Positions 1 to 49,052 of a stretch of DNA of 64,000 bases are shown here, one piece after another. This DNA comes from the human T2T-CHM13v2.0 reference genome, Homo sapiens. A program made the position numbers and the translations under genes. The notes below the pieces were generated by a model, which was given only the letters and a program-made list of their open reading frames with translations, was not told the DNA's origin and ran no database searches. The DNA lies in the NCBI GenBank assembly GCA_009914755.4, contig CP086569.2, forward strand, positions 48,416,001-48,480,000, written 5' to 3'. Position 1 is the stretch's first letter. Each line of letters starts with the position of its first letter.

Positions 1-671
<671 letters not shown>

Positions 672-1234
672 ATATTTTTTAAATGAAAAAAAATTTGAAA
701 GGTACTCTGCTTGGTACAATAATCAAATGTATAAACTGAGGAATAAAACATAACCATGAAAGCTACTTATAACTGCATATGGAAAATACAGAGGATAATT
801 TTTTAAATAACATATTTTGAAAGCCTTAACTAGTAATTTGAAGAGTTGGCATTTGAAAGGCCAGTATGAATATACCTTCAAAGCAGCAACACAGGTTCCC
901 CATGAGAAAAAGCAAACTCAGGGAAAATAAAACCACAAAGGTTCAATCTCTTCTGACCTTTGAAATACACAGCACAGACAGTGGTCCTTAGGAGGAAGAG
1001 CAGGAGACCCCTAATTCCGTCACCATGGCGATAGGGCATAAACATTGCTGGGTGAGGGCACAATCCACATTGTGAGGTCCAACTGCTGCCAGGAAGACAG
1101 GAGTGCTTTTACATAGACCGAAATGTCATTGAAGGCTCAGAGTTTTGTTTCAAGAACTGAATCCCAAGCCCACACGTTATTAGGCTGCACTTCTTAAAAC
1201 AAGTTATGAGATGGGAAAAAGGGCACCCACAAAC
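672..1234. other. Complex (non-low-complexity) about 560 bp segment of the repeat unit; origin unknown. Recurs in every unit, running from Alu end+1 to ORF start+356
   Basis: Sequence 'catattttttaaatgaaaaaaaatttgaaaggtactctgcttggtacaataatcaaatg ... ccatggcgatagggcataaacattgctgggtgagggcacaatccacattgtgaggtccaactgctgccaggaagacagg ... gggcacccacaaacatacg'. About 45% GC. Not recognisably Alu or simple repeat. Carries the recurrent 61-codon minus-strand ORF. Begins with a variable A-run ('aaatgaaaaaaaa' or 'aaataaaaaaaaa'). Confidence 0.6.
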
Positions 1235-2792
1235 ATACGTATACATTATGTATATAATAATATACAGTATCATATATATAATATATATAACCTATGTATA
1301 ATATTGTTTTACATCCTGCATCTTATGTTATATATAGTATAAAATATAATAATTGATAATATATAAGTTTTATATTTATACAATATGACATATAGTATAT
1401 ATTATAATTTATGACATATATAATATATGTTATATATCATATATAGAATATATTATACGGTTAATATACGTATCAAATATAAATTATACATTATATATAT
1501 TATATATAATATATCTGTTATATATAATACCCATTATGCATAATATATATATTATGTCTATGTTATATATAGCATAAAACAACATATAATAATATATAAT
1601 TGTATATATAAAATGCGACATATAATATATATTATATTTTATGACATATGTAATACATATTATATATTATATATAATACGTTGTATGTATAACACCTATA
1701 TTAAATATATATTATATGACTATGTTATTAATTACATGTCACATATGTTATATATTATATATTTTACATAGAATATACCGGTTACATACAATATATACTA
1801 TGTTACCTATAATGTAAAATTTATTACATGTAAAATAAAGAATGCAATATATGATGTATAATTTATAATATACAATATGTGGAATGTGATATATATAACA
1901 TATAATATATGATATATGATATACAGTATATGATATATAACATACAATATATGATACCTAATATATATGGCATACAATATATATTTTATGATATGTATTC
2001 TATATGTTTTATATTCTGTTATATATAACTATTTGAAATTATATATAACTGTATAATATTTTATGTAAATATGTAATATAATATATATAACTATATAATA
2101 TATTATATATAACTATATATTATGTTATATATACTTTTATAACATAATTTACATAAAATATCATAATATAATATATATTATATTATTTCATATTACATAA
2201 ATATATATTACATATCACCCTATATAAGTAACATACATAATAGTATAATATAGATTATATTATGTTATATTAAATATCATATATATCATGTATCATATAT
2301 TCTATAATATATATTATACATTATATAATATGCATGTTGTCTATTATGTGATATATATAACTATATATATAATTATATTATTATACATATAACTAGATAA
2401 ACATGTAATTCTACATATTTTCATTTATAATATATAGAATTATATAATCATATATAATTATTTATATTCTATAAAAAATTATATCATTATATAAATTATA
2501 ATATATAAAAATTATAATATGTACTACAAATATATATATTATATATCATATATGATATAGTACCTTTGTTATATATCATAATACATATAAATGTGTATTA
2601 TGTTATCTATAATTATATAATTTCATATATAAGATGTATAATATGTATTATATATTATATATGTTATGTAATATATATAGTATATATAAGATGACACAGG
2701 ATAAATATTATATACTATGACATATAAAATATATGAGGTTATATGTTACATATAAGGCATAGCACATAACATGTAATATATATCATATATAA
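1235..2792. repeat. AT-rich low-complexity block of unit 1 (about 1.56 kb, about 85-90% A+T by eye)
   Basis: Degenerate (TA)n/(ATATAA)n-like sequence, dense in short palindromes ('ttacatgtaa', 'atatcatatatgatat'). Contains an internal roughly 230-bp sub-duplication (about 1310-1545 vs 1545-1790). Confidence 0.85.
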
Positions 2793-3090
<298 letters not shown>

Positions 3091-3296
3091 ATATTTTTTA
3101 AATGAAAAAAAATTTCAAAGGTACTCTGCTTGGTACAATAATCAAATGTATAAACTGAGGAATAAAACATCACCATGAAACCTACTTATAACTGTATACG
3201 GAAAATACAGAGGATAATTTTTTAAATAACATATTTTGAAAGCCTTAACTAGTAATTTGAAGAGTTGGCATTTGAAAGGCCAGTATGAATATACCT

Positions 3297-3482
3297 TCAA
3301 AGCAGCAACACAGGTTCCCCATGAGAAAAAGCAAACTCAGGGAAAATAAAACCACAAAGGTTCAATCTCTTCTGACCTTTGAAAGACACAGCACAGACTG
3401 TGGTCCTTAGGACGAAGAGCAGGAGACCCCTAATTCCGTCACCATGGCGATAGGGCATAAACATTGCTGGGTGAGGGCACAA
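3297..3482 (-). other. Representative copy of the repeat-borne 61-codon ORF (27 intact copies). Probably non-coding
   Basis: ORF track: MCPHPAMFMPYRHGDGIRGLLLFVLRTTVCAVSFKGQKRLNLCGFIFPEFAFSHGEPVLLL. Recurs once per unit only because the units are 97-100% identical. No family resemblance I can recognise. Every change the ORF track shows between copies alters an amino acid (G/V, E/V, R/H, E/D, P/T, V/A, M/K, C/F ...); silent changes would not appear in that track, so this argues against coding only weakly. Confidence 0.1.
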
Positions 3483-3653
3483 TCCACATTGTGAGGTCCA
3501 ACTGCTGCCAGGAAGACAGGAGTGCTTTTACATAGACCGAAAGGTCATTGAAGGCTCAGAGTTTTGTTTCAAGAACTGAATCCCAAGCCCACACGTTATT
3601 AGGCTGCGCTTCTTAAAACAAGTTATGAGATGGGAAAAATGGCACCCACAAAC

Positions 3654-5210
3654 ATACGTATACATTATGTATATAATAATATACAGTATCATATATATAA
3701 TATATTTAAACTATGTATAATATTGTTTTACATCCTGCATCTTATATTATATATATTGTATAAAATATAATAATTGATAATATATAAGTTTTATATTTAT
3801 ACAATATGACATATAGTATATATTATAATTTATGACATATATAATATATGTTATATATCATATATAGAATATATTATACGGTTAATATACGTATTAAATA
3901 TAAATTAAACATTATATATATTATATATAATATATCTGTTATATATAATACCCATTATGCATAATATATATATTATGTCTACGTTATATATAGTATAAAA
4001 CAACATATAATAATATATAATTGTATATATAAAATGCGACATATAATATATATTATATTTTATGACATATGTAATATATATTATATATTATATATAATAC
4101 ATTGTATGTATAATACCTATATTAAATATATATTATATGACTATGTTATTAATTACATGTCACATGTGTTATATATTATATATTTTACATAGAATATACC
4201 GGTTACATAAAATATATAGTATGTTACCTATAATGTATAATTTATTACATGTAAAATAAAGAATGCAATATATTATGTATAATTTATAATATACAATATG
4301 TGGAATGTCATATATATAACATATAATATATGATATATGATATACAGTATATGATATATAACATACAATATATGATACCTAATATATATGGTATGCAATA
4401 TATATTTTATGATATGTATTCTATATGTTTTATATTCTGTTATATATAACTATTTGAAATTACATATAACTGTATAATATTTTATGTAAATATGTAATAT
4501 AATATATATAACTATATAATATATTATATATAACTATATATTATGTTATATATACTTTTATAACATAATTTACATAAAATATCATAATATAATGTATATT
4601 ATATTATTTCATATTACATAATATATATTACATATCACCCAATATATGTAACATACATAATATTATAATATAGATTATATTATGTTATATTAAATATCAT
4701 ATATATCATGTATCATATATTCTATAATATATATTACACATAATATAATATGTATGTTGTCTATTATGCGATATATATAACTATATATATAATTATATTA
4801 TTATACATATAACTAGATAAACATGTAATTCTACATATTTTCATTTATAATATATAGAATTATATAATCATATATAATTATTTATATTCTATAAAAAATT
4901 ATATCATTATATAAATTATAATATATAAAAATTATAATATGTACTACAAATATATATATTATATATCATATATGATATAGTACCTTTGTTATATATCATA
5001 ATACATATAAATGTGTATTAAGTTATCTATAATTATATAATTTCATATATAAGATGTATAATATGTATCATATATTATATATGTTATGTAATATATATAG
5101 TATATATAAGATGACACAGGATAAATATTATATAATATGACATAAAATATATGACGTTATATGTTACATATAAGGCATAGCACATAACATGTAATATATA
5201 TCATATATAA
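3654..5210. repeat. AT-rich low-complexity block, unit 2
   Basis: Homologous to 1235-2792 at one-unit offset. Confidence 0.8.
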
Positions 5211-5508
<298 letters not shown>

Positions 5509-6071
5509 ATATTTTTTAAATGAAAAAAAATTTCAAAGGTACTCTGCTTGGTAAAATATTCAAATGTATAAACTGAGAAATAAAACATAACCATGAAACC
5601 TACTTATAACTGCATATGGAAAATACAGAGGATAATTTTTTAAATAACATATTTTGAAAGCCTTAACTAGTAATTTGAAGAGTTGGCATTTGAAAGGCCA
5701 GTATGAATATACCTTCAAAGCAGCAACGCAGGTTCCCCATGAGAAAAAGCAAACTCAGGGAAAATAAAACCACAAAGGTTCAAACTCTTCTGACCTTTGA
5801 AAGACACAGCACAGACAGTGGTCCTTAGGACGAAGAGCAGGAGACCCCTAATTCCGTCACCATGTCGATAGAGCATAAACATTGCTGGGTGAGGGAACAA
5901 TCCACATTGTGAGGTCCAACTGCTGCCAGGAAGACAGGAGTGCTTTTACATAGACCGAAAGGTCATTGAAGGCTCAGAGTTTTGTTTCAAGAACTGAATC
6001 CCAAGCCCACACGTTATTAGGCTGCGCTTCTTAAAACAAGTTATGAGATGGGAAAAAGGGCACCCACAAAC

Positions 6072-7927
<1,856 letters not shown>

Positions 7928-8490
7928 ATATTTTTTAAATGAAAAAAAATTTCAAAGGTACTCTGCTTGGTACAATAATCAAATGTATAAACTGAGGAAT
8001 AAAACATAACCATGAAACCTACTTATAACTGCATATGGAAAATACAGAGGATAATTTTTTAAATAACGTATTTTGAAAGCCTTAACTAGTAATTTGAAGA
8101 GTTGGCATTTGAAAGGCCAGTATGAATATACCTTCAAAGCAGCAACACAGGTTCCCCATGAGAAAAAGCAAACTCAGGGAAAATAAAACCACAAAGGTTC
8201 AATCTCTTCTGACCTTTGAAAGACACAGCACAGACAGTGGTCCTTAGGACGAAGAGCAGGAGACCCCTAATTCCGTCACCATGGCGATAGGGCATAAACT
8301 TTGCTGGGTGAGGGCACAATCCACATTGTGAGGTCCAACTGCTGCCAGGAAGACAGGAGTGCTTTTACATAGACCGAGAGGTCATTGAAGGCTCAGAGTT
8401 TTGTTTCAAGAACTGAATCCCAAGCCCACACGTTATTAGGCTGCGCTTCTTAAAACAAGTTATGAGATGGGAAAAAGGGCACCTACAAAC

Positions 8491-10342
<1,852 letters not shown>

Positions 10343-10905
10343 ATATTTTTTAAATGAAAAAAAATTTCAAAGGTACTCTGCTTGGTACAATAATCAAATG
10401 TATAAACTGAGGAATAAAACATAACCATGAAACCTACTTATAACTGCATATGGAAAATACAGAGGATAATTTTTTAAATCACATATTTTGAAAGCCTTAA
10501 CTAGTAATTTGAAGAGTTGGCATTTGAAAGGCCAGTATGAATATACCTTCAAAGCAGCAACACAGGTTCCCCATGAGAAAAAGCAAACTCAGGGAAAATA
10601 AAACCACAAAGGTTCAATCTCTTCTGACCTTTGAAAGACACAGCACAGACAGTGGTCCTTAGGACGAAGAGCAGGAGACCCCTAATTCCGTCACCATGGC
10701 GATAGGGCATAAACATTGCTGGGTGAGGGCACAATCCACATTGTGAGGTCCAACTGCTGCCAGGAAGACAGGAGTGCTTTTACATAGACCGAAAGGTCAT
10801 TGAAGGCTCAGAGTTTTGTTTCAAGAACTGAATCCCAAGCCCACACGTTATTAGGCTGCGCTTCTTAAAACAAGTTATGAGATGGGAAAAAGGGCACCCA
10901 CAAAC

Positions 10906-12464
10906 ATACGTATACATTATGTATATAATAATATACAGTATCATATATATAATATATATAACCTATGTATAATATTGTTTTACATCCTGCATCTTATATT
11001 ATATATATTGTATAAAATATAATAATTGATAAAATATAAGTTTTATATTTATACAATATGACATATAGTATATATTATAATTTATTACATATATAATATA
11101 TGTTATATATCATATATAGAATATATTATACGGTTAATATACGTATTAAATATAAATTATACATTATATATATTATATAAAATATATCTGTTATATATAA
11201 TACCCATTATGCATAATATATATATTATGTCTATGTTATATATACTATAAAACAACATATAATAATATATAACTGTATATATAAAATGCGACATATAATA
11301 TATATTATATTTTATGACATATGTAATATATATTATATATTATATATAATACGTTGTATGTATAATACCTATATTAAATATATATTATATGACTATGTTA
11401 TTAATTACATGTCACATATGTTATATATTATATATTTTACATAGAATATACCGGTTACATACAATATATACTATGTTACCTATAATGTATAATTGATTAC
11501 ATGTAAAATAAAGAATGCAATATATTATGTATAATTTATAATATACAATATGTGGAATGTGATATATATAACATATAATATATGATATATGATATACAGT
11601 ATATGATATATAACATACAATATATGATACCTGATATATATGGTATACAATATATATTTTATGATATGTATTCTCTTTGTTTTATATTCTGTTATATATA
11701 ACTATTTGAAATTATATATAACTGTATAATATTTTATGTAAATATGTAATATAATATATATAACTATATAATATTTTATATATAACTATATATTATGTTA
11801 TATATACTTTTATAACATAATTTACATAAAATATCATAATATAATATATATTATATTATTTCATATTACATAATATACATTCCATATCACCCAATATAAG
11901 TAACATACATAATATTATAATATAGAATATATTATGTTATATTAAATTTCATATATATCATGTATCATATATTCCATAATATACATTATACATTATACAA
12001 TATGTATGTTGTCTATTATGTGATATATATAACTATATATATAATTATATTGTTATACATATAACTAGATAAACATGTAATTCTACATATTTTCATTTAT
12101 AATATATAGAATTATATAATCATATATAATTATTTATATTCTATAAAAAATTATATCATTATATAAATTATAATATATAAAAATCATAATATGTCCTACA
12201 AATATATATATTATATATCATATATGATATAGTACCTTTGTTGTATATCATAATACATATAAATGTGTATTATGTTATCTATAATTATATAATTTCATAT
12301 ATAAGATGTACAATATGTATTATATATTATATATGTTATGTAATATATATAGTATATATAAGATGACACAGGATAAATATTATATACTGTGACATATAAA
12401 ATATATGAGGTTATATGTTACATATAAGGCATAGCACATAACATGTAATATATATCATCTATAA
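10906..12464. repeat. AT-rich low-complexity block, unit 5
   Basis: Homologous at unit offset. Confidence 0.8.
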
Positions 12465-12762
12465 TTTTTTTTTAGACAGAGTCTTGTCCTGTTGCACAGG
12501 GTGGAGTACAATGGCGCCATCTTTGCTCATTGCAACATCTGCCTCACGGGTCCAAGCGATTGTCCTCCCTCAGCCTGCCAGGTAGCTGGGACTACACCAC
12601 ACTGGGACTACACCAGCTGCCACCATGCCTAGCTAATTTTTTGGATTTTTAGTAGTGACAGCGTTTCACTGTATTGGCCAGGATGGTCTTGATCTCTTCA
12701 CCTTGTGATCCCCTTGTCTTGACCTCCAAATTTGCTGGGATTACAGGCCTGAGCCAAGATCC
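12465..12762 (-). mobile_element. Alu, antisense, unit copy 6; subtype A
   Basis: Same Alu. Variants 'gctcattgcaac', 'cagcctgccagg', 'ccccttgtcttgacctcc'. Confidence 0.93.
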
Positions 12763-13325
12763 ATATTTTTTAAATGAAAAAAAATTTCAAAGGTACTCTG
12801 CTTGGTACAATAATCAAATGTATAAACTGAGGAATAAAACATAACCATGAAACCTACTTATAACTGCATATGGAAAATACAGAGGATAATTTTTTAAATC
12901 ACATATTTTGAAAGCCTTAACTAGTAATTTGAAGAGTTGGCATTTGAAAGGCCAGTATGAATATACCTTCAAAGCAGCAACACAGGTTCCCCATGAGAAA
13001 AAGCAAACTCAGGGAAAATAAAACCACAAAGGTTCAATCTCTTCTGACCTTTGAAAGACACAGCACAGACAGTGGTCCTCAGGACGAAGAGCAGGAGACC
13101 CCTAATTCCGTCACCATGGCGATAGGGCATAAACATTGCTGGGTGAGGGCACAATCCACATTGTGAGGTCCAACTGCTGCCAGGAAGACAGGAGTGCTTT
13201 TACATAGACCGAAACGTCATTGAAGGCTCAGAGTTTTATTTCAAGAACTGAATCCCAAGCCCACACGTTATTAGGCTGCGCTTCTTAAAACAAGTTATGA
13301 GATGGGAAAAAGGGCACCCACAAAC

Positions 13326-14882
13326 ATACGTATATATTATGTATATAATAATATACAGTATCATATATATAATATATATAACCTATGTATAATATTGTTT
13401 TACATCCTGCATCTTATATTATATATATTGTATAAAATATAATAATTGATAATATATAAGTTCTATATTTATACAATATGACATATAGTATATATTATAA
13501 TTTATGACATATATAATATATGTTATATATCATATATAGAATATATTATACGGTTAATATACGTATTAAATATAAATTATACATGATATATATTATATAT
13601 AATATATCTGTTATATATAATACCCATTATGCATAATATATATATTATATCTATGTTATATATAGTATAAAACAACATATAATAATATATAATTGTATAT
13701 ATAAAATGCGACATATAATATATATTATATTTTATGACATATGTAATATATATTATATATTATATATAATACGTTGTATGTATAATACCTATATTAAATA
13801 TATATTATATGACTATGTTATTAATTACATGTCACATGTGTTATATATTATATATTTTACATAGAATATACCGGTTACATACAATATATACTATGTTACC
13901 TGTAATGTATAATTTATTACATGTAAAATAAAGAATGCAATATATTATGTATAATTTATAATATACAATATGTGGAATGTGATATATATAACATATAATA
14001 TATGATATATGATATACAGTATATGATATATAACATACAATATATGATACCTAATATATATGGTATACAATATATATTTTATGATATGTATTCTCTATGT
14101 TTTATATTCTGTTATATATAACTATTTGAAATTATATATAACTGTATAATATTTTATGTAAATATGTAATATAATATATATAACTATATAATATATTATA
14201 TATAACTATATATTATGTTATATATACTTTTATAACATAATTTACATAAAATATCATAATATAATATATATTATATTATTTCATATTACATAATATATAT
14301 TACATATCACCCAATATAAGTAACATACATTGTATTATAATATAGAATATATTATGTTATATTAAATATCATATATATCATGTATCATATATGCTATAAT
14401 ATATATTATACATTATATAATATGTATGTTGTCTATTATGTGATATATATAACTATATATATAATTATATTATTATACATATAACTAGATAAACATGTAA
14501 TTCTACATATTTAGATTTATAATATATAGAATTATATAATCATATTTAATTATTTAAATTCTATAAAAAATTATATCATTATATAAATTATAATATATAA
14601 AAATTATAATATGTACTACAAATATATATTATATATCATATATGATATAGTACCTTTGTTATATATCATAATACATATAAATGTGTATTATGTTATCGAT
14701 AATTATATAATTTCATATATAAGATATATAATATGTATTATATATTATATATGTTATGTAATATATATAGTATATATAAGATGACACAGGATAAATATTA
14801 TATACTATGACATATAAAATATATGAGGTTATATGTTACATATAAGGCATAGCACATAACATGTAATATATATCATATATAA
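13326..14882. repeat. AT-rich low-complexity block, unit 6
   Basis: Homologous at unit offset. Confidence 0.8.
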
Positions 14883-15180
<298 letters not shown>

Positions 15181-15743
15181 ATATTTTTTAAATGAAAAAA
15201 AATTTCAAAGGTACTCTGCTTGGTACAATAATCAAATGTATAAACTGAGGAATAAAACATAACCATGAAACCTACTTATAACTGCATATGGAAAATACAG
15301 AGGATAATTTTTTAAATAACATATTTTGAAAGCCTTAACTAGTAATTTGAAGAGTTGGCATTTGAAAGGCCAGTATGAATATACCTTCAAAGCAGCAACA
15401 CAGGTTCCCCATGAGAAAAAGCAAACTGAGGGAAAATAAAACCAAAAAGGTTCAATCTCTTCTGACCTTTGAAAGACACAGCACAGACAGTGGTCCTTAG
15501 GACGAAGAGCAGGAGACCCCTAATTCCGTCACCATGGCGATAGGGCATAAACATTGCTGGGTGAGGGCACAATCCACATTGTGAGGTCCAACTGCTGCCA
15601 GGAAGACAGGAGTGCTTTTACATAGACCGAAAGGTCATTGAAGGCTCAGAGTTTTGTTTCAAGAACTGAATCCCAAGCCCACACGTTATTAGGCTGCGCT
15701 TCTTAAAACAAGTTATGAGATGGGAAAAAGGGCACCCACAAAC

Positions 15744-17302
15744 ATACGTATACATTATGTATATAATAATATACAGTATCATATATATAATATATATAAC
15801 CTATGTATAATATTGTTTTACATCCTGCGTCTTATAATATATATATTGTATAAAATATAATAATTGATAATATATATGTTTTATATTTATACAATATGAC
15901 ATATAGTATATATTATAATTTATGACATATATAATATATGTTATATATCATATATAGAATATATTATACGGTTAATATACGTATTAAATATAAATTATAC
16001 ATTATATATATTATATATAATATATCTGTTATATATAATACCCATTATGCATAATATATATATTATGTCTATGTTATATATAGTATAAAACAACATATAA
16101 TAATATATAATTGTATATAGAAAACGCGACATATAATATATATTATATTTTATGACATATGTAATATATATTATATATTATATATAATACGTTGTATGTA
16201 TAATACCTATATTAAATATATATTATATGACTATGTTATTAATTACATGTCACATATGTTATATATTACATATTTTACATAGAATATACCGGTTACATAC
16301 AATATATACTATGTTAACTATAATGTATAATTGATTACATGTAAAATAAAGAATGCAATATATTATGTATAATTTATAATATACAATATGTGGAATGTGA
16401 TATATATAACATATAATATATGATATATGATATACAGTATATGATAATTAACATACAATATATGATACCTAATATATCTGGTATACAATATATATTTTAT
16501 GATATGTATTCTATATGTTTTATATTCTGTTATATATAACTATTTGAAATTATATATAACTGTATAATATTTTATGTAAATATGTAATATAATATATATA
16601 ACTATATAATATATTATATATAACTATATATTATGTTATACATACTTTTACAACATAATTTACATAAAATATCATAATATAATATATATTATATTATTTC
16701 ACATTACATAATATATATTACATATCACCCAATATATGTAACATACATAATATTATAATATAGATAATATTATGTTATATTAAATATCATATATATCATG
16801 TATCATATATCCTATAATATATATTACACATTATATAATATGTATGTTGTCTATTATGTGATATATATAACTATATATATAATTATATTATTATACATAT
16901 AACTAGATAAACATGTAATTCTACATAATTTCATTTATAATATATAGAATTATATAATCATATATAATTATTTATATTCTATAAAAAATTATATCATTAT
17001 ATAAATTATAATATAAAAAAATTATAATATGTACTACAAATATATATATTATATATCATATATGATATAGTACCTTTGTTATATATCATAATACATATAA
17101 ATGTGTATTATGTTATCTATAATTATATAATTTCATATATAAGATATATAATATGTATTATATATTGTCTATGTTATGTAATATATATAGTATATATAAG
17201 CTGACACAGGATAAATATTATATACTATGACATATAAAATATATGAGGTTATATGTTACATATAAGGCATAGCACACAACATGTAATATATATCATATAT
17301 AA
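15744..17302. repeat. AT-rich low-complexity block, unit 7
   Basis: Homologous at unit offset. Confidence 0.8.
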
Positions 17303-17600
17303 TTTTTTTTTAGACAGAATCTTGTCCTGTTGCACAGGGTGGGGTACAATGGCGCCATCTTTGCTCACTGCAACTTCTGCCTCACGGGTCCAAGCGATGG
17401 TCCTCCCTCAGCCTCCCAGGTAGCTGGGACTACACCACACTGGGACTACACCAGCTGCCACCATGCCTAGCTAATTTTTTGGATTTTTAGTAGTGACAGC
17501 GTTTCACTGTATTGGCCAGGATGGTCTTGATCTCTTCACCTTGTGATCCCCTTGCCTTGGCCTCCAAATTTGCTGGGATTACAGGCCTGAGCCAAGATCC
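17303..17600 (-). mobile_element. Alu, antisense, unit copy 8; subtype B (first B-type copy)
   Basis: Diagnostic switch to 'gaatcttgtcc', 'ggtggggtac', 'gcaacttctgcc'. Also 'agcgatggtcc', shared with copy 15. Confidence 0.93.
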
Positions 17601-18163
17601 ATATTTTTTAAATGAAAAAAAATTTCAAAGGTACTCTGCTTGGTACAATAATCAAATGTATAAACTGAGGAATAAAACATAACCATGAAACCTACTTATA
17701 ACTGCATATGGAAAATACAGAGGATAATTTTTTAAATAACATAGTTTGAAAGCCTTAACTAGTAATTTGAAGAGTTGGCATTTGAAAGGCCAGTATGAAT
17801 ATACCTTCAAAGCAGCAACACAGGTTCCCCATGAGAAAAAGCAAACACAGGGAAAATAAAAACACAAAGGTTCAATCTCTTCTGACCTTTGAAAGACACA
17901 GCACAGACAGTGGTCCTTAGGACGAAGAGCAGGAGACCCCTAATTCCGTCACCATGGCGATAGGGCATAAACATTGCTGGGTGAGGGCACAATCCACATT
18001 GTGAGGTCCAACTGCTGCCAGGAAGACAGGAGTGCTTTTACATAGACCGAAAGGTCATTGAAGGCTCAGAGTTTTGTTTCAAGAACTGAATCCCAAGCCC
18101 ACACGTTATTAGGCTGCGCTTCTTAAAACAAGTTATGAGATGGGAAAAAGGGCACCCACAAAC

Positions 18164-20013
<1,850 letters not shown>

Positions 20014-20576
20014 ATACTTTTTAAATAAAAAAAAATTTCAAAGGTACACTGCTTGGTACAATAATCAAATGTATACACTGAGGAATAAAACATAACCATG
20101 AAACCTACTTATAACTGCATATGGAAAATACAGAGGATAATTTTTTAAATAACATATTTTGAAAGCCTTAACTAGTAATTTGAAGAGTTGGCATTTGAAA
20201 GGCCAGTATGAATATACCTTCAAAGCAGCAACACAGGTTCCCCATGAGAAAAAGCAAACTCAGGGAAAATAAAAACACAAAGGTTCAATCTCTTCTGACC
20301 TTTGAAAGACACAGCACAGACAGTGGTCCTTAGGACGAAGAGCAGGAGACCCCTAATTCCGTCACCATGGCGATAGGGCATAAACATTGCTGGGTGAGGG
20401 CACAATCCACATTGTGAGGTCCAACTGCTGCCAGGAAGACAGGAGTGCTTTTACATAGACCGAAAGGTCATTGAAGGCTCAGAGTTTTGTTTCAAGAACT
20501 GAATCCCAAGCACACACGATATTAGGCTGCGCTTCTTAAAACAAGTTATGAGATGGGAAAAAGGGCACCCACAAAC

Positions 20577-22435
<1,859 letters not shown>

Positions 22436-22998
22436 ATACTTTTTAAATGAAAAAAAATTTCAAAGGTACTCTGCTTGGTACAATAATCAAATGTATACAC
22501 TGAGGAATAAAACATAACCATGAAACCTACTTATAACTGCATATGGAAAATACAGAGGATAATTTTTTAAATAACATATTTTGAAAGCCTTAACTAGTAA
22601 TTTGAAGAGTTGGCATTTGAAAGGCCAGTATGAATATACCTTCAAAGCAGCAACACAGGTTCCCCATGAGAAAAAGCAAACTCAGGGAAAATAAAAACAC
22701 AAAGGTTCAATCTCTTCTGACCTTTGAAAGACACAGCACAGACAGTGGTCCTTAGGACGAAGAGCAGGAGACCCCTAATTCCGTCACCATGGCGATAGGG
22801 CATAAACATTGCTGGGTGAGGGCACAATCCACATTGTGAGGTCCAACTGCTGCCAGGAAGACAGGAGTGCTTTTACATAGACCGAAAGGTCATTGAAGGC
22901 TCAGAGTTTTGTTTCAAGAACTGAATCCCAAGCCCACACGTTATTAGGCTGCGCTTCTTAAAACAAGTTATGAGATGGGAAAAAGGGCACCCACAAAA

Positions 22999-24555
22999 AT
23001 ACGTATACATTATGTATATAATAATATACAGTATCATATATATAATATATATAACCCATGTATAATATTGTTTTACATCCTGCATCTTATATTATATATA
23101 TTGTATAAAATATAATAATTGATAATATATAAGTTTTATATTTATACAATATGACATATAGTATATATTATAATTTATGACATATATAATATATGTTATA
23201 TATCATATATAGAATATATTATACGGTTAATATACGTATTAAATACAAATTATACATTATATATATTATATATAATATATCTGCTATATATAATAACCAT
23301 TATGCATAATATATATATATGTCTATGTTATATATAGTATAAAACAACATATAATAATATATAATTGTATATATAAAATGCGACATATAATATATATTAT
23401 ATTTTATGACATATGTAATATATATTATATATTATATATAATACGTTGTATGTATAATACCTATATTAAATATATATTATATGACTATGTTATTAATTAC
23501 ATGTCACATGTGTTATATATTATTTATTTTACACAGAATATACCGGTTACATACAATATATACTATGTTACCTACAATGTATAATTTATTACATGTAAAA
23601 TAAAGAATGCAATATATTATGTATAATTTATAATATACAATATGTGGAATGTGATATACATAACATATAATATATGATATAGGATATAGAGTATATGATA
23701 TATAACATACAATATATGATACCTAATATATATGGTATACAATATATATTTTATGATATGTATTCTCTATGTTTTATATTCTGTTATATATAACTATTTG
23801 AAATTATATATAACTGTATAATATTCTATGTAAATATGTAATATAATATATATAAAAATATAATATATTATATATAACTATATATAATGTTATATATACT
23901 TTTATAACATAATTTACATAAAATATCATGATATAATATATATTATATTATTTCATATTACATAATATATATTACATATCACCCAATATAAGTAACATAC
24001 ATAATATTATAATATAGATTTTATTATGTTATATTAAATATCATATATGTCATGTATCATATATTCTATAATATATATTATACATTATATAATATGTATG
24101 TTGTCTATTATGTGATATATATAACTATATATATAATTATATTATTATACATATAACGAGATAAACATGAAATTCTACATATTTTCATTTATAATATATA
24201 GAATTATATAATCATATATAATTATTTATATTCTATAAAAATTATATCATTATATAAATTATAATATATAAAAATTGTAATATGTACTACAAATATATAT
24301 ATTATATATCATATATGATATAGTACCTTTGTTATATATCATAATACATATAAATGTGTATTATGTCATCTATAATTATATAATTTCATATATAAGATGT
24401 ATAATATGTATTATATATTATATATGTTATGTAATATATATAGTATATATAAGATGACACAGGATAAATATTATATACTATGACATGTAAAATATATGAG
24501 GTTATATGTTACATATAAGGCATAGCACATAACATGTAATATATATCATATATAA
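22999..24555. repeat. AT-rich low-complexity block, unit 10 (mosaic: A-type variants after a B-type Alu and ORF)
   Basis: 'aacccatg', 'atatctgctat', 'ttatttattttacacagaat', as in units 3 and 4. Confidence 0.8.
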
Positions 24556-24853
24556 TTTTTTTTTAGACAGAGTCTTGTCCTGTTGCACAGGGTGGAGTAC
24601 AACGGCGCCATCTTTGCTCACTGCAACATCTGCCTCACGGGTCCAAGCGATTGTCCTCCCTCAGCCTCCCAGGTAGCTGAGACTACACCACACTGGGACT
24701 ACACCAGCTGCCACCATGCCTAGCTAATTTTTTAGATTTTTAGTAGTGACAGCGTTTCACTGTATTGGCCAGGATGGTCTTGATCTCTTCACCTTGTGAT
24801 CCCCTTGCCTTGGCCTCCAAATTTGCTGGGATTACAGGCCTGAGCCAAGATCC
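24556..24853 (-). mobile_element. Alu, antisense, unit copy 11; subtype A (reversion to A after three B copies)
   Basis: 'gagtc', 'ggagtacaacggcgcc', 'acatctg', 'gtagctgagactac', 'ttttttagattt'. Confidence 0.93.
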
Positions 24854-25416
24854 ATATTTTTTAAATGAAAAAAAATTTCAAAGGTACTCTGTTTGGTACA
24901 ATAATCAAATGTATAAACTGAGGAATAAAACATAACCATGAAACCTACTTATAACTGCATATGGAAAATACAGAGGATAATTTTTTAAATAACATATTTT
25001 GAAAGCCTTAACTAGTAATTTGAAGAGTTGGCATTTGAAAGGCCAGTATGAATATACCTTCAAAGCAGCAACACAGGTTCCCCATGAGAAAAAGCAAACT
25101 CAGGGAAAATAAAACCACAAAGGTTCAATCTCTTCTGACCTTTGAAAGACACAGCACAGACAGTGGTCCTTAGGACGAAGAGCAGGAGACCCCTAATTCC
25201 GTCACCATGGCGATAGGGCATAAACATTGCTGGGTGAGGGCACAATCCACATTGTGAGGTCCAACTGCTGCCAGGAAGACAGGAGTGCTTTTACACAGAC
25301 CGAAAGGTCATTGAAGGCTCAGAGTTTTGTTTCAAGAACTGAATCCCAAGCCCACACGTTATTAGGCTGCGCTTCTTAAAACAAGTTATGAGATGGGAAA
25401 AAGGGCACCCACAAAC

Positions 25417-26975
25417 ATACGTATACATTATGTATATAATAATATACAGTATCATATATATAATATATATAACCTATGTATAATATTGTTTTACATCCTG
25501 CATCTTATGTTATATATATTGTATAAAATATAATAATTAATAATGTATAAGTTTTATATTTATACAATATGACATATAGTATATATTATAATTTATGACA
25601 TATATAATATATGTTATATATCATATATAGAATATATTATACGGTTAATATACGTATTAAATATAAATTATACATTATATATATTATATATAATATATCT
25701 GCTATATATAATACCCATTATGCATAATATATATATTATGTCTATGTTATATATAGTATAAAACAACATATAATAATATATAATTGTATATATAAAATGC
25801 GACATATAATATATATTATATTTTATGACATATGTAATATATATTATATATTATATATAATACGTTGTATGTATAATACCTATATTAAATATATATTATA
25901 TGACGATGTTATTAATTACATGTCAAATGTGTTATATATTATTTATTTTACACAGAATATACCGGTTACATACAATATGTACTATGTTACCTACAATGTA
26001 TAATTTATTACATGTAAAATAAAGAATACAATATATTATGTATAATTTATAATATACAATATGTGGATTGTGATATATATAACATATAATATATGATATA
26101 GGATATACAGTATATGGTATATAACATACAATATATGATACCTAATATATATGGTATACAATATATATTTTATGATATGTATTCCCTATGTTTTATATTC
26201 TGTTATATATAACTATTTGAAATTATATATAACTGTATAATATTTTATGTAAATATGTAATATAATATATATAAAAATATAATATATTATATATAACTAT
26301 ATATTATGTTATATATACTTTTATAACATAATTTATATAAAATATCATAATAAAATATATATTATATTATTTCATATTACATAATATATATTACATATCA
26401 CCCAATATAAGTAACATACATAATATTATAATATAGATTATATTATGTTATATTAAATATCATATATATCATGTATCATATATTCTATAATATATATTAT
26501 ACATTATGTAATATGTATGTTGTCTAATATGTGATATATATAACTATATATATAATTATATTATTATACATATAACTAGATAAACATGTAATTCTACATA
26601 TTTCCATTTATAATATATAGAATTATATAATCATATATAATTATTTATATTCTATAAAAAATTATATCATTATATAAATTATAATATATAAAAACTATAA
26701 TATGTACTACAAATATATATATTATATATCATATATGATATAGTACCTTTGTTATATATCATAATACATATAAATGTGTATTATGTTATCTATAATTATA
26801 TAATTTCATATGTAAGATGTATAATATGTATTATATATTATATATGTTATGTAATATATATAGTATATATAAGATGACACAGGATAAATATTATATACTA
26901 TGACATATAAAATATATGAGGTTATATGTTACATATAAGGCATAGCACATAACATGTAATATATATCATCTATAA
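25417..26975. repeat. AT-rich low-complexity block, unit 11
   Basis: Homologous at unit offset. Confidence 0.8.
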
Positions 26976-27273
<298 letters not shown>

Positions 27274-27836
27274 ATATTTTTTAAATGAAAAAAAATTTCA
27301 AAGGTACTCTGCTTGGTACAATAATCAAATGTATAAACTGAGGAATAAAACATAACCATGAAACCTACTTATAACTGCATATGGAAAATACAGAGGATAA
27401 TTTTTTAAATAACATAGTTTGAAAGCCTTAACTAGTAATTTGAAGAGTTGGCATTTGAAAGGCCAGTATGAATATACCTTCAAAGCAGCAACACAGGTTC
27501 CCCATGAGAAAAAGCAAACTCAGGGAAAATAAAACCACAAAGGTTCAATCTCTTCTGACCTTTGAAAGACACAGCACAGACAGTGGTCCTTAGGACGAAG
27601 AGCAGGAGACCCCTAATTCCGTCACCATGGCGATAGGGCATAAACATTGCTGGGTGAGGGCACAATCCACATTGTGAGGTCCAACTGCTGCCAGGAAGAC
27701 AGGAGTGCTTTTACATAGACCGAAAGGTCATTGAAGGCTCAGAGTTTTGTTTCAAGAACTGAATCCCAAGCCCACACCTTATTAGGCTGCGCTACTTAAA
27801 ATAAGTTATGAGATGGGAAAAAGGGCACCCACAAAC

Positions 27837-29690
<1,854 letters not shown>

Positions 29691-30253
29691 ATATTTTTTA
29701 AATGAAAAAAAATTTCAAAGGTACTCTGCTTGGTACAATAATCAAATGTATAAACTGAGGAATAAAACATAACCATGAAACCTACTTATAACTGCATATG
29801 GAAAATACAGAGGATAATTTTTTAAATAACATATTTTGAAAGCCTTAACTAGTAATTTGAAGAGTTGGCATTTGAAAGGCCAGTATGAATATACCTTCAA
29901 AGCAGCAACACAGGTTCCCCATGAGAAAAAGCAAACTCAGGGAAAATAAAACCACAAAGGTTCAATCTCTTCTGACCTTTGAAAGACACAGCACAGACAG
30001 TGGTCCTTAGGACGAAGAGCAGGAGACCCCTAATTCCGTCACCATGGTGATAGGGCATAAACATTGCTGGGTGAGGGCACAATCCACATTGTGAGGTCCA
30101 ACTGCTGCCAGGAAGACAGGAGTGCTTTTACATAGACCGAAAGGTCATTGAAGGCTCAGAGTTTTGTTTCAAGAACTGAATCCCAAGCCCACACGTTTTT
30201 AGGCTGCGCTTCCTAAAACAAGTTATGAGATGGGAAAAAGGGCACCCACAAAC

Positions 30254-31812
30254 ATACGTATACATTATGTATATAATAATATACAGTATTATATATATAA
30301 TATATATAACCTATGTATAATATTGTTTTACATCCTGCATCTCATATTATATATATTGTATAAAACATAATAATTGATAATATATAAGTTTTATATTTAT
30401 ACAATATGACATATAGTATATATTATAATTTATGACATATATAATATATGTTATATATCATATATAGAATATATTATACGGTTAATATACGTATTAAATA
30501 TAAATTATACATTATATATATTATATATAATATATCTGCTATATATAATATCCATTATGCATAATATATATATTATGTCTATGTTATATATAGTATAAAA
30601 CAACATATAATAATATATAATTGTATATATAAAATGCGACATATAATATATATTATATTTTATGACATAAGTAATATATATTATATATTAGATATAAAGC
30701 GTTGCATGTATAATACCTATATTAAATACATATTATATGACTATGTTATTAATTACATGTCACATGTGTTATATATTATTTATTTTACACAGAATATACC
30801 GGTTACATACAATATATACTATGTTACCTACAATGTATAATTTATTACATGTAAAATAAAGAATGCAATATATTATGTATAATTTATAACATACAATATG
30901 TGGAATGTGATATATATAACATATAATATATGATATATGATATACAGTATATGATATATAACATACAATATATGATACCTAATATATATGGTATACAATA
31001 TATATTTTATGATATGTATTCTCTATGTTTTATATTCTGTTATATATATCTATTTGAAATTATATATAACTGTATAATATTTTATGTAAATATGTAATAT
31101 AATATATATAAAAATATAATATATTATATATAACTATATATTATGTTATATATACTTTTATAACATAATTTACATAAAATATCATAATATAATATATATT
31201 ATATTATTTCATATTACATAATATATATTACATATCACCCAATATAAGTAACATACATAATATTATAATATGGATTATATTATGTTATATTAAATATCAT
31301 ATATATCATGTATCATATATTCTATAATATATATTATACATTATATATTATGTATGTTGTCTATTATGTGATATATATAACTATATATATAATTATATTA
31401 TTATACATATAACTAGATAAACATGTAATTCTACATATTTTCATTTATAATATATAGAATTATATAATCATATATAATTATTTATATTCTATAAAAAATT
31501 ATATCATTATATAAATTATAATATATAAAAATTATAATATGTACTACAAATATATATATTATATATCATATATGATATAGTACCTTTGTTATATATCATA
31601 ATACATATAAATGTGTATTATGTTATCTATAATTATATAATTTCATATATAAGATGTATAATATGTATCATATATTATATATGTTATGTAATATATATAG
31701 TATATATAAGCTGACACAGGATAAATATTATATACTATGAAATATAAAATATATGAAGTTATATGTTACATATAAGGCATAGCACATAACATGTAATATA
31801 TACCATATATAA
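30254..31812. repeat. AT-rich low-complexity block, unit 13
   Basis: Homologous at unit offset. Confidence 0.8.
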
Positions 31813-32110
<298 letters not shown>

Positions 32111-32673
32111 ATATTTTTTAAATGAAAAAAAATTTCAAAAGTACTCTGCTTGGTACAATAATCAAATGTATAAACTGAGGAATAAAACATAACCATGAAA
32201 CCTACTTATAACTGCATATGGAAAATACAGAGGATAATTTTTTAAATAACATATTTTGAAAGCCTTAACTAGTAATTTGAAGAGCTGGCATTTGAAAGGC
32301 CAGTATGAATATACCTTCAAAGCAGCAACACAGGATCCCCATGAGAAAAAGCAAACACAGGGAAAATAAAAACACAAAGGTTCAATCTCTTCTGACCTTT
32401 GAAAGACACAGCACAGACAGTGGTCCTTAGGACGAAGAGCAGGAGACCCCTAATTCCGTCACCATGGCGATAGGGCATAAACATTGCTGGGTGAGGGCAC
32501 AATCCACATTGTGAGGTCCAACTGCTGCCAGGAAGACAGGAGTGCTTTTACATAGACCGAAAGGTCATTGAAGGCTCAGAGTTTTGTTTCAAGAACTGAA
32601 TCCCAAGCCCACACGTTATTAGGCTGCGCTTCTTAAAACAAGTTATGAGATGGGAAAAAGGGCACCCACAAAC

Positions 32674-34230
32674 ATACGTATACATTATGTATATAATAAT
32701 ATACAGTATCATATATATAATATATATAACCTATGTATAATATTGTTTTACATCCTGCATCTTATGTTATATATATTGTATAAAATATAATAATTGATAA
32801 TATATAAGTTTTATAATTATACAATATGACATATAGTATATATTATAATTTATGACATATATAATATATTTTATATGACATATATATAATATATTATAGG
32901 GTTAATATACGTATTAAATATAAATTATACATTATATATATTATATATACTATATCTGTTATATATAATACCCATTATGCATAATATATATATTATGTCT
33001 ATGTTATATATAGTATAAAACAACATATAATAATATATAATTGTATATATAAAATGCGACATATAATATATATTATATTTTATAACATATGTAATATATA
33101 TTATATATTATATATAATACGTTGTATGTATAATACCTATATTAAATATATATTATATGACTATGTTATTAATTACATGTCACATGTGTTATATATTATA
33201 TATTTTACATAGAATATACCGGTTACATACAATATACACTATGTTACCTATAATGTATAATTTATTACATGTAAAATAAAGAATGCAATATATTATGTAT
33301 AATTTATAATATACAATATGTGGAATGTGATATATATAACATATAATATATGATATATGATATACAGTATATGATATATAACATACAATATATGATTCCT
33401 ATTATATATGGTATACAATATATATTTTATGATATGTATTCTATATGTTTTATATTCTGTTATATATAACTATTTGAAATTATATGTAACTGTATAATAT
33501 TTTATGTAAATATGTAATATAATATATATAACTATATAATATATTATATATAACTATATATTATGTTATATATACTTTTATAACATAATTTACATAAAAT
33601 ATCATAACATAATATATATTATATTATTTCATATTACATAATATATATTACATATCACCCAATATAACTAACATACATAATATTATAATATAGATTATAT
33701 TATGTTATATTAAATATCATATATATCATGTATCATATATTCTATAATATATATTACACATTATATAATATGTATGTTGTCTATTATGTGATATATAACT
33801 ATATATATAATTATATTTTTATACATATAACTAGATAAACATGTAATTCTACATATTTTCATTTATAATATGTAGAATTATATAATCATATATAATTATT
33901 TATATTCTATAAAAAATTTTATCATTATATAAATTATAATATATAAAAATTATAATATGTACTACAAATATATATATTATATATCATATATGATATAGTA
34001 CCTTTGTTATATATCATAATACATATAAATGTGTATTATGTTATCTATAATTATATAATTTCATATATAAGATGTATAATATGTATCATATATTATATAT
34101 GTTATGTAATATATATAGTATATATAAGATGACACAGGATAAATATTATATACTATGACATAGAAAATATATGAGGTTATATTTTACATATAAGGCATAG
34201 CACATAACATGTAATATATATCATACATAA
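32674..34230. repeat. AT-rich low-complexity block, unit 14
   Basis: Homologous at unit offset. Private rearranged stretch at about 32860-32900. Confidence 0.8.

Positions 34231-37513: not shown

Positions 37514-39372
<1,859 letters not shown>

Positions 39373-39935: not shown

Positions 39936-41792
<1,857 letters not shown>

Positions 41793-42355: not shown

Positions 42356-44211
<1,856 letters not shown>

Positions 44212-44774: not shown

Positions 44775-46631
<1,857 letters not shown>

Positions 46632-47194: not shown

Positions 47195-49052
<1,858 letters not shown>

What the first reader, a model, noticed from the sequence alone, without database searches (positions are those of the whole stretch)
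1235..2792. About 1.56 kb palindrome-rich block of roughly 85-90% A+T per unit, i.e. about 42 kb of AT-rich DNA in the window. Candidate fragile, cruciform or S/MAR-like sequence
Each unit carries a long degenerate TA-rich tract packed with perfect short palindromes. Examples are the 18-bp 'tatatcatatatgatata' at 123-140, recurring in every unit, and 'ttacatgtaa'. Long AT-rich and palindromic AT-rich repeats are known to stall replication and form secondary structures: the AT-rich minisatellite expansions at rare fragile sites FRA16B and FRA10B, and the PATRRs mediating t(11;22). AT-rich tracts are also typical of scaffold/matrix attachment regions. A tandem array of about 27 such tracts is a plausible hotspot for instability, late replication and assembly gaps.
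Basis: partly seen in the sequence, partly recalled or inferred. Interest (0 to 1): 0.5.

Follow-up and report, generated by a model that had tools for sequence, protein, structure and literature searches.

The report
AT-rich part of human DYZ2 satellite
The flagged block is the AT-rich third of the well-known 2.4-kb DYZ2 (HSat1B) satellite that fills much of the human Y-chromosome long-arm heterochromatin; its many small palindromes are what its TA-rich composition predicts, so it is a known, ordinary satellite and not a new fragile element.

Summary
The whole window is 26.4 tandem copies of a 2,420-bp unit, about 98% identical to each other. Each unit has a 1,558-bp block of 85.9% A+T, a 5'-truncated Alu about 18% diverged from the recalled AluY consensus, and about 570 bp of mixed sequence. 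This is the human DYZ2 / HSat1B satellite, most likely from Yq12. Consensus length, the 'ACATACG' junction, G+C, CpG density and unit identity all match published values. A published 40-nt Yq-specific probe target occurs once per unit.

However, short palindromes and inverted or mirror repeats are no more frequent than in dinucleotide-matched shuffles, and palindromes of at least 8-12 bp are depleted.

Single-strand folding is modestly better than shuffles (z = -5.3). It reaches about 70% of a FRA16B-type array and about 27% of a perfect palindrome. The best hairpin, 106 bp at 2056-2161, decays in divergent copies.

The defining features of PATRRs and of FRA16B-type minisatellites were tested and are not met. 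High flexibility and low duplex stability are real but follow from composition.

The predicted instability and assembly gaps are documented facts for Yq12. They are attributed to unequal sister-chromatid exchange in the array. The feature is already known and of low interest.

The parts
1..64000 (.). DYZ2 / HSat1B tandem array: 26.4 copies of a 2,420-bp unit, mean pairwise identity 98.0%
   Evidence: Anchor spacing is 2,413-2,422 bp. The consensus is 2,420 bp with 98% identity between units. G+C is 24.55% and CpG density is 1 per 143 bp. These match published DYZ2 values.
1235..2792 (.). AT-rich block of the first complete unit (the finding). It recurs every ~2,420 bp (next copy starts at 3654), with a partial copy at about 1-372.
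   Evidence: 85.9% A+T. It is a degenerate, layered set of tandem repeats with periods of about 21-22, 37-39 and 230 bp. All 33 indel columns among the copies fall here, and its length ranges from 1,551 to 1,560 bp.
1233..1239 (+). 'ACATACG' heptamer at the junction of the HSATI part and the AT-rich part
   Evidence: The heptamer sits at consensus position 12 and occurs 24 times in the window. Hallast et al. describe this heptamer at this junction.
2056..2161 (.). Best local hairpin or cruciform candidate: a 106-bp imperfect quasi-palindrome inside the 22-bp-repeat zone
   Evidence: Fold z = -3.9 for 2022-2221 and -4.8 for 2046-2171. The arms are about 87% complementary with 3-4 indels. The signal is lost in copies of 86% identity or less.
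2542..2559 (.).
   Evidence: Present in 26 of 27 units.
2793..3084 (-). 5'-truncated, old Alu element. It is antisense on the + strand, and its A-tail abuts the AT block.
   Evidence: Aligns to positions 13-288 of the AluY consensus (recalled from memory) at 81.5% identity, with a 15-nt internal insertion. There is a sub-threshold Rfam hit to mir-1268 (Alu-derived, from memory) at 2897-2963.
3085..3653 (.). Mixed-composition part (35-50% G+C) corresponding to the 'HSATI' segment of DYZ2
   Evidence: Composition is. It is 99-100% identical to human-contaminant contigs. It has no ORF longer than 61 aa.
3060..3099 (+). 40-nt target of the published Yq-specific 'Y-chrom' padlock probe, spanning the junction of the Alu 5' end and the HSATI part, followed by the DraI site
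   Evidence: 27 hits, one per unit, 13 of them exact. The probe sequence and its exclusive labelling of Yq are from PMC2212658.

Best explanation
The block is the AT-rich segment of the human DYZ2 / HSat1B satellite, the 2.4-kb 'tripartite' repeat of AT-rich block, truncated Alu and HSATI. It most probably comes from the Yq12 heterochromatin.

It is non-coding bulk satellite DNA. The AT segment is a decayed, layered TA-rich simple or minisatellite repeat that was captured, together with an Alu and a unique segment, into a longer unit. That unit was then amplified and is kept homogeneous by unequal sister-chromatid exchange and gene conversion.

Within the unit, the AT segment is the fastest-evolving and only length-variable part, which I infer to be due to replication slippage. 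Its dense small palindromes, mirror repeats, high flexibility and low melting stability are direct consequences of its AT/TA dinucleotide composition.

Its modest excess of foldability comes from tandem copies of nearly self-complementary TA-rich motifs. That excess is lineage-specific and not conserved.

Shown here: identity, anatomy, composition-matched statistics and the variation pattern. Taken from the literature: chromosomal location, copy-number polymorphism, hypermethylation and the exchange mechanism. Inferred: slippage as the source of the indels, and the lack of a structure-specific function.
For: Identity:
- Period and consensus are 2,420 bp, equal to the published 2,420-bp DYZ2 consensus.
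- The tripartite anatomy matches, with an AT region above 85% AT and an Alu about 20% diverged and 5'-truncated.
- 'ACATACG' sits at the HSATI/AT junction.
- G+C is 24.55% and CpG is 1 per 143 bp, against published 24% and 1 per 150 bp.
- Units are about 98% identical, against published 'over 98%'.
- The 40-nt Yq-specific probe target occurs once per unit.
- The same unit appears at 99-100% identity as stray short contigs in 17 unrelated bacterial assemblies and in metagenomes, as T2T-Y reported for HSat1B.

Composition explains the motifs.

The AT block is the mutable part:
- It holds 33 gapped columns against 0 elsewhere. Substitutions per site are 0.0128, against 0.0101 (Alu) and 0.0072 (HSATI).
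- In a variant class of copies the AT block is about 87% identical while HSATI and Alu are 96-100% identical.
- It is published as 'highly variable'.

The hairpin is not conserved.

Array dynamics: blocks of several units are duplicated within the window, and the published mechanism is unequal exchange.
Against: - No reference genome or Dfam library was available. Assignment to Yq12, as opposed to the smaller acrocentric HSat1B arrays, rests on homogeneity, unit length and being the dominant variant. It does not rest on a direct alignment.
- The whole-block fold z of -5.3 and the 2056-2161 hairpin (z of about -4 to -5) show real inverted symmetry that composition alone does not explain.
- Published Yq12 inversion breakpoints lie at AT-block boundaries. 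This leaves room for some structure- or flexibility-related breakage.
Confidence: 0.93

Rival explanations
1. PATRR-like element: the AT block extrudes cruciforms or hairpins that are cleaved and drive rearrangement, as PATRR11 and PATRR22 do in t(11;22).
For: - The literature traces the PATRR-bearing AT-rich repeats of LCR22 to the same HSATI/Alu/AT-rich tripartite repeat.
- The block contains a 106-bp quasi-palindrome with z of about -4 to -5.
- The whole block folds better than shuffles, z = -5.3.
- Yq12 inversion breakpoints lie at AT-block edges.
Against: - PATRRs are several hundred bp, over 90% AT, nearly perfect palindromes without a spacer.
- Here the best palindrome is 106 bp, about 87% complementary and gapped. 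The longest ungapped hairpin arms are 33 nt at 82%, and distant arms are at most 96 nt at 74%.
- MFE per nt is -0.11 to -0.13, against -0.45 for a perfect palindrome built from the same DNA.
- Hairpin potential decays without compensation in divergent copies.
Confidence: 0.07
2. FRA16B/FRA10B-type AT-rich minisatellite fragile site: the tracts stall replication and exclude nucleosomes when bound by minor-groove ligands, giving cytogenetic fragility.
For: - The block is a high-flexibility, low-stability island. Nearly all 100-bp windows exceed 13.7 degrees.
- It contains degenerate internal periodicities of 21-22 bp and 37-39 bp.
- Its fold energy is about 70% of that of a FRA16B-type array of equal length.
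Against: - FRA16B and FRA10B are uninterrupted arrays of 33-42-bp units that span several kb, with 91% AT reported for FRA10B.
- Here each 1.56-kb tract is interrupted by 860 bp of 35-50% G+C DNA. The internal repeats match at only 60-85%.
- No match to the 33-bp unit within 4 mismatches.
- A large fragile-site review does not mention Yq12 or the Y chromosome at all.
Confidence: 0.08
3. Scaffold/matrix attachment region: the AT tracts anchor the array to the nuclear scaffold every 2.4 kb.
For: High A+T content, low duplex stability and regular spacing. These are generic S/MAR correlates.
Against: These properties are non-specific. No biochemical or literature evidence for matrix binding of DYZ2 was found. 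S/MARs are defined operationally, not by sequence.
Confidence: 0.1
4. The same satellite family, but from an acrocentric short-arm (chr13/14/15/21/22) HSat1B array and not from Yq12.
For: HSat1B also occurs on acrocentric short arms.
Against: - Y copies are described as a single, highly homogenised cluster over 98% identical. Acrocentric HSat1B shows many allelic alignments below 95%.
- The window's units are 98% identical, with the Y modal length of 2,420 bp.
- Their consensus is the dominant variant among human contaminant contigs. That fits the roughly 14 Mb of DYZ2 on the Y chromosome.
Confidence: 0.1

Closest known systems
DYZ2 / HSat1B (human satellite I 2.47-kb male-specific repeat; Frommer et al. 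1984; Rhie et al. 2023; Hallast et al. 2023)
   Same: Everything tested matches: the 2,420-bp unit, the AT-rich + truncated Alu + HSATI order, the ACATACG junction, 24-25% G+C, 1 CpG per ~145 bp, about 98% inter-unit identity, and the Yq-specific 40-nt probe target in every unit.
   Different: Nothing material differs. The window shows two local unit subfamilies and duplicated multi-unit blocks. This is the kind of local structure already described for Yq12.
PATRR22 / LCR22 AT-rich repeats (Translocation Breakpoint Type A)
   Same: Both share the flanking signature of HSATI + Alu + AT-rich repeat. The TBTA is reported as 85% identical to satellite I clone X00470.1. Both are AT-rich and carry inverted symmetry.
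   Different: A PATRR is a spacer-less, nearly perfect palindrome of several hundred bp and over 90% AT. The DYZ2 AT block is 85.9% AT, and its best palindrome is 106 bp and imperfect. Its predicted structure energy is about one quarter of that of a perfect palindrome.
FRA16B / FRA10B expanded AT-rich minisatellites
   Same: Both are TA-rich, highly flexible and of low duplex stability, with moderate hairpin potential.
   Different: The fragile sites are uninterrupted arrays of a well-defined 33-42-bp unit several kb long. DYZ2 has 1.56-kb degenerate tracts embedded in a 2.4-kb unit, with no match to the 33-bp unit.
HSat1A (SAR, 42-bp AT-rich satellite)
   Same: It belongs to the same classical 'satellite I' density fraction. 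Together with HSat1B it is described as the most AT-rich part of chromosomes.
   Different: HSat1A is a simple 42-bp monomer array. The window has a 2.4-kb composite unit. Sequence relatedness could not be tested because no 42-bp consensus was available to me.

Membership tests
DYZ2 / HSat1B | Tandem unit of about 2.4 kb (published consensus 2,420 bp) | tested here: met
   Spacing is 2,413-2,422 bp with mode 2,420, and the consensus is 2,420 bp. Published value.
DYZ2 / HSat1B | Tripartite unit: AT-rich region over 85% AT, a 5'-truncated Alu about 20% diverged, and a more G+C-rich HSATI segment | tested here: met
   The AT block is 85.9% AT. The Alu aligns to positions 13-288 at 81.5% identity, using a consensus recalled from memory. 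The third segment is 35-50% G+C. Published description.
DYZ2 / HSat1B | 'ACATACG' at the junction of HSATI and the AT-rich repeat | tested here: met
   At window 1233-1239, consensus position 12, with 24 occurrences. Published.
DYZ2 / HSat1B | Contains the sequence of the cloned male-specific 2.47-kb satellite I repeat | tested here: met
   The 40-nt padlock target designed from Frommer 1984, which labels only Yq, is found once per unit: 27 hits, 13 of them exact, each followed by the DraI site.
DYZ2 / HSat1B | About 24% G+C, about 1 CpG per 150 bp, and units over 98% identical | tested here: met
   24.55% G+C and 1 CpG per 143 bp. Mean identity is 98.0%.
DYZ2 / HSat1B | Match to the Dfam/RepeatMasker HSATI model, and location in Yq12 or an acrocentric p-arm | not testable with these tools
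   No human reference or repeat library is available here. Location is inferred from homogeneity, unit length and dominance among contaminant contigs.
PATRR (palindromic AT-rich repeat) | Palindrome several hundred bp long | tested here: not met
   The longest hairpin-type element is 106 bp, at 2056-2161. The longest ungapped arms are 33 nt. Definition.
PATRR (palindromic AT-rich repeat) | Nearly perfect arm symmetry, without a spacer | tested here: not met
   The best arms are about 87% complementary with 3-4 indels. Distant arms are 70-79% complementary and 10-1,157 nt apart.
PATRR (palindromic AT-rich repeat) | Over 90% A+T | tested here: not met
   85.9% overall. Only some 100-200-bp windows reach 90-93%.
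PATRR (palindromic AT-rich repeat) | Recurrent de novo translocation breakpoints at the palindrome centre | not testable with these tools
   This needs breakpoint data. The literature gives only Yq12 inversion breakpoints at the AT-block edges.
FRA16B/FRA10B AT-rich minisatellite | Uninterrupted array of a 33-42-bp AT-rich unit spanning several kb | tested here: not met
   The tracts are 1.56 kb, separated by 860 bp of non-AT DNA. Internal periods of 21-22, 37-39 and 230 bp match at only 60-85%. Definition.
FRA16B/FRA10B AT-rich minisatellite | Sequence similarity to the 33-bp FRA16B unit | tested here: not met
   No match within 4 mismatches, and 1-2 matches at 6 mismatches in this low-complexity DNA.
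FRA16B/FRA10B AT-rich minisatellite | Cytogenetic gap or break induced by distamycin A or BrdU | not testable with these tools
   This is an experimental test. The fragile-site review does not mention Yq12.
S/MAR | Retention on the nuclear scaffold or matrix (operational definition) | not testable with these tools
   Only generic correlates could be computed: high A+T and low duplex stability, at -0.96 kcal/mol per step.

The most novel reading that the evidence does not exclude
The Y-lineage-specific 106-bp quasi-palindrome (2056-2161) and the wider network of imperfect inverted repeats in the AT block are present in thousands of copies. They might act as weak hairpin-forming replication barriers that seed sister-chromatid exchange. 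In that case a 'mini-PATRR' mechanism, and not tandem homology alone, would contribute to the more than five-fold length polymorphism of Yq12 and to the AT-block-edge inversion breakpoints.
Probability: 0.06. Interest if true: 0.4.

Novelty: already known. Interest (0 to 1): 0.08.

Why it matters
This does not matter as a discovery. DYZ2/HSat1B has been known since 1984 and has been sequence-resolved since 2023. Its AT-rich block, non-B motif enrichment, hypervariability and link to the LCR22 AT-rich repeats are all published.

Two small points are useful. First, the apparent enrichment of palindromes and of inverted and mirror repeats in this satellite is fully accounted for by dinucleotide composition. 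This is a caution for non-B motif catalogues. Second, the same unit still sits as human contamination in many bacterial assemblies.

Tried and rejected
- Rfam scan of three units: only a sub-threshold mir-1268 hit in the Alu part, and no RNA family.
- ORF scan: nothing longer than 61 aa, even with bacterial start codons. A coding reading is rejected.
- The first whole-block shuffle run timed out. It was redone in parallel.
- A fixed-column base-pair count on alignment A1 was abandoned. The variant copies lack one 22-bp unit and were mis-registered. I replaced it with per-orthologue folding against each copy's own shuffles.
- A blastn search for orthologues of the quasi-palindrome returned hundreds of low-complexity hits. 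Only the top 12 were used.
- The primary papers were not held: Babcock 2007 (PMC1832092) and Frommer 1984 (PMC318713). Their content is cited only through papers that quote them.
- No PATRR22 or TBTA sequence text was available for direct alignment.
- A search for Yq12 replication-timing data gave nothing specific. Late replication of Yq12 is therefore only background knowledge from memory.
- The HSat1A 42-bp consensus was not obtainable, so relatedness of the AT block to HSat1A was not tested.
- A bacterial or phage origin was never a serious possibility. The matches in bacterial assemblies are short stray contigs, or N-flanked inserts, of foreign composition.

Full report
**What is in the window**

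The 64-kb window is a single tandem array. A conserved anchor recurs 27 times at spacings of 2,413-2,422 bp, and the commonest 20-mer offset is 2,420 bp. Twenty-five complete units align into a 2,420-bp consensus, with a mean pairwise identity of 98.0% and a minimum of 96.9%.

Each unit has three parts:
- A 1,558-bp AT-rich block. In the first complete unit it lies at 1235-2792, exactly the flagged interval.
- An Alu-like piece of about 290 bp that begins with a T-run (2793-3084).
- About 570 bp of 35-50% G+C sequence (3085-3653).

**Checking the observation**

The block is 85.9% A+T, with 100-bp windows between 77% and 93%. There are 26 complete copies plus a partial copy at the window start, about 40.9 kb of AT-rich DNA. 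The 18-bp palindrome TATATCATATATGATATA is at 123-140 and in 26 of 27 possible positions. TTACATGTAA occurs 26 times. The description is therefore accurate.

The phrase 'packed with palindromes' does not survive a composition-matched control.
- Against 500 dinucleotide-preserving shuffles, perfect palindromes of at least 8, 10 and 12 bp are depleted (62 vs 108 +/- 14, 24 vs 53, 13 vs 26).
- Palindromes of at least 16 bp are as expected (7 vs 6.2). The longest is 24 bp, which is unremarkable against 21 +/- 3.5.
- Using non-B-DB-style definitions (perfect arms of at least 10 nt, spacer 0-100 nt), the AT block has 52 inverted repeats and 47 mirror repeats, about 33 and 30 per kb. The other 861 bp of the unit has none.
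- Shuffles of the AT block give 51 +/- 15 and 48 +/- 14.

The motif richness follows from AT and TA steps making up 57% of all dinucleotide steps.

**Identity**

The anatomy matches the human satellite DYZ2 / HSat1B.
- The T2T-Y paper describes a tandem repeat of about 2.5 kb made of an ancient AluY fragment (20% diverged), an extremely AT-rich region (over 85% AT) and a more G+C-rich region. Most units are over 98% identical.
[quoted passage not shown] They report an 'ACATACG' heptamer at the HSATI/AT junction, 24% G+C and 1 CpG per 150 bp.
- The window has a 2,420-bp consensus, ACATACG at 1233-1239, 24.55% G+C and 1 CpG per 143 bp.
- Its Alu aligns to positions 13-288 of AluY at 81.5% identity. 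The AluY consensus was recalled from memory.

For a sequence-level test I used the 'Y-chrom' padlock probe of Lohmann et al. It was designed from Frommer's 1984 clone of the male-specific 2.47-kb satellite I repeat, and it labels only the Y long arm. Its 40-nt target, TTGCTGGGATTACAGGCCTGAGCCAAGATCCATATTTTTT, occurs once in every unit. There are 27 hits with at most 2 mismatches, 13 of them exact, against 0 expected. Each is followed by the DraI site used in that protocol.

An exact 30-mer from the non-Alu part also finds short stray contigs in 17 unrelated bacterial assemblies and 24 metagenome loci. Most are 99-100% identical to the window's consensus over all three parts. T2T-Y reported exactly this contamination pattern for HSat1B.

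I could not align to a human reference, so a Yq12 origin (as opposed to an acrocentric origin) is an inference. It rests on three points:
- High homogeneity. Acrocentric HSat1B shows many allelic alignments below 95%.
- The modal Y unit length.
- The window's consensus being the dominant variant among contaminant contigs.

**Structure-forming potential**

- The whole AT block, folded as single-stranded DNA, gives -206.9 kcal/mol. Forty dinucleotide shuffles give -182.4 +/- 4.6, so z = -5.3. The tool's own fold of 1,500 nt was -198.8 kcal/mol.
- In 200-nt windows, z lies mostly between +1.6 and -1.5. The exception is 2022-2221, with z = -3.5 and -3.9 with the dedicated tool and 200 shuffles.
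- That signal is a 106-bp quasi-palindrome at 2056-2161, inside a zone of 22-bp repeats. Its arms are about 87% complementary with 3-4 indels.
- No larger symmetric element exists. The longest ungapped hairpin arms are 33 nt at 82%. The longest distant inverted repeat is 96 nt at 74%, with 284 nt between the arms.

Benchmarks on 462-nt sequences:

| Sequence | MFE, kcal/mol per nt |
|---|---|
| DYZ2 AT-block windows | -0.111 to -0.132 |
| Array of the published FRA16B 33-bp unit | -0.167 to -0.171 |
| Perfect palindrome built from the same DYZ2 DNA | -0.451 |
| Alu + HSATI part of the unit | -0.097 |

The hairpin is not conserved.
- In copies at least 95% identical, z is -1.9 to -4.7. Single substitutions weaken the hairpin without compensation.
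- In copies of 86% identity or less, including a variant class lacking one 22-bp unit, z is +0.6 to -1.9.
- I infer that the excess foldability is a by-product of tandem copies of nearly self-complementary TA-rich motifs.

**Flexibility and unwinding**

The parameter tables used here were recalled from memory: SantaLucia nearest-neighbour energies, and the Sarai twist fluctuations used by TwistFlex.
- The AT block averages -0.96 kcal/mol per step, against -1.39 for the Alu and -1.29 for the HSATI part.
- It averages 14.99 degrees of twist flexibility.
- 1,446 of 1,458 100-bp windows exceed the 13.7-degree 'flexibility peak' threshold. None of the 748 windows outside the block does.

These features are real but purely compositional.

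**Variation**

- Among the 25 aligned units, all 33 gapped columns lie in the AT block and none in the other 849 columns.
- Substitutions per site against the consensus are 0.0128 for the AT block, 0.0101 for the Alu and 0.0072 for the HSATI part.
- AT-block length ranges only from 1,551 to 1,560 bp.
- In a variant class of external copies, the AT block is about 87% identical to the window's, while the HSATI and Alu parts are 96-100% identical.

The AT block is thus the fastest-evolving part. This agrees with the published remark that it is 'highly variable'.

**Comparison with known families**

- PATRRs are defined as several hundred bp, over 90% AT, nearly perfect palindromes without a spacer. 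All three sequence criteria fail here.
- FRA16B and FRA10B are uninterrupted arrays of a 33-42-bp unit that become fragile when several kb long, with 91% AT reported for FRA10B. Here the tracts are 1.56 kb and interrupted. Their internal periods are degenerate, and there is no match to the 33-bp unit within 4 mismatches.
- S/MAR status is operational and cannot be tested here.
Babcock et al. 2007 and Delihas derive the PATRR-bearing AT-rich repeats of LCR22 from this same HSATI/Alu/AT-rich repeat, and the TBTA is 85% identical to satellite I clone X00470.1. I know this only through papers that cite them.
  - It is the largest gap in GRCh38-Y.
  - About 15% of Strand-seq libraries show sister-chromatid exchanges there.
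  - Its length ranges from 10.3 to 53.1 Mb between men.
  - Its de novo mutation rate is about ten times the autosomal rate.
  - Inversion breakpoints lie at AT-block edges.
- The authors attribute the array dynamics to unequal sister-chromatid exchange and gene conversion.
- T2T-Y had already noted that HSat1B is enriched for inverted and mirror repeats.

**Verdict**

The finding is a correct description of a well-known satellite. Its identity was missed and its palindromes were over-interpreted. Novelty: already known. Interest: low.

Noticed in passing
window 1222-61703 (units u01-u25): The units fall into two subfamilies: u01-07 and u10-13, against u08-09 and u14-25. Blocks of several units are duplicated: u17-19 match u21-23 (about 9.68 kb apart) and u09 matches u17 (about 19.36 kb apart). 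20-mer offsets peak at 4,837-4,842, 9,680 and 19,359 bp. An EcoRI-site polymorphism tracks the pattern.
   Followed up: partly
L001-L017 (genome contigs); L006:5897-6920: The same DYZ2 unit sits, at 99-100% identity, as stray contigs of 0.6-2.5 kb in assemblies of 17 unrelated bacteria (Mycobacterium, Bifidobacterium, Streptomyces and others). In Nostocoides japonicum T1-X7 (NZ_HF570958.1), a piece of about 1 kb lies between 100-N gaps inside a 5.16-Mb RefSeq pseudo-scaffold whose sequence is about 75% G+C. This is human contamination.
   Followed up: yes
L028:2238-4122, L029:150-2445, L034:2336-5693, L037:1-1206, L035, L032: A variant class of the repeat has an AT block only about 84-87% identical to the window's, while its HSATI and Alu parts are 96-100% identical. 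In L028, L034 and L037 a variant unit lies directly next to a Y-type unit on the same contig. This is either a real mixed array or an assembly chimera.
   Followed up: partly
L018 (BNJT01002008.1), L021 and L027 (BNJU01004413.1): Metagenome contigs of about 54 kb carry much older, heterogeneous copies, with HSATI 77-97% and the AT block 82-98% identical. One AT block (L018:8252-9819) is partly replaced by near-pure TA-rich low-complexity sequence. These are probably peripheral or acrocentric HSat1B from human DNA in the samples.
   Followed up: no
window 2897-2963 (- strand), and the same position in each unit: The Alu part carries a 15-nt internal insertion that looks like a local duplication (GGGACTACACC...GGGACTACACC). 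It gives a sub-threshold Rfam hit to mir-1268, an Alu-derived family from memory (36.9 bits against a gathering score of 83).
   Followed up: partly
window 675 and the same position in each unit (padlock target position 35): A T/C polymorphism (CATATTTTTT vs CATACTTTTT) in the published 40-nt Y-probe target appears to separate the two unit subfamilies. Thirteen of the 27 copies have a single mismatch to the probe, twelve of them this change.
   Followed up: no
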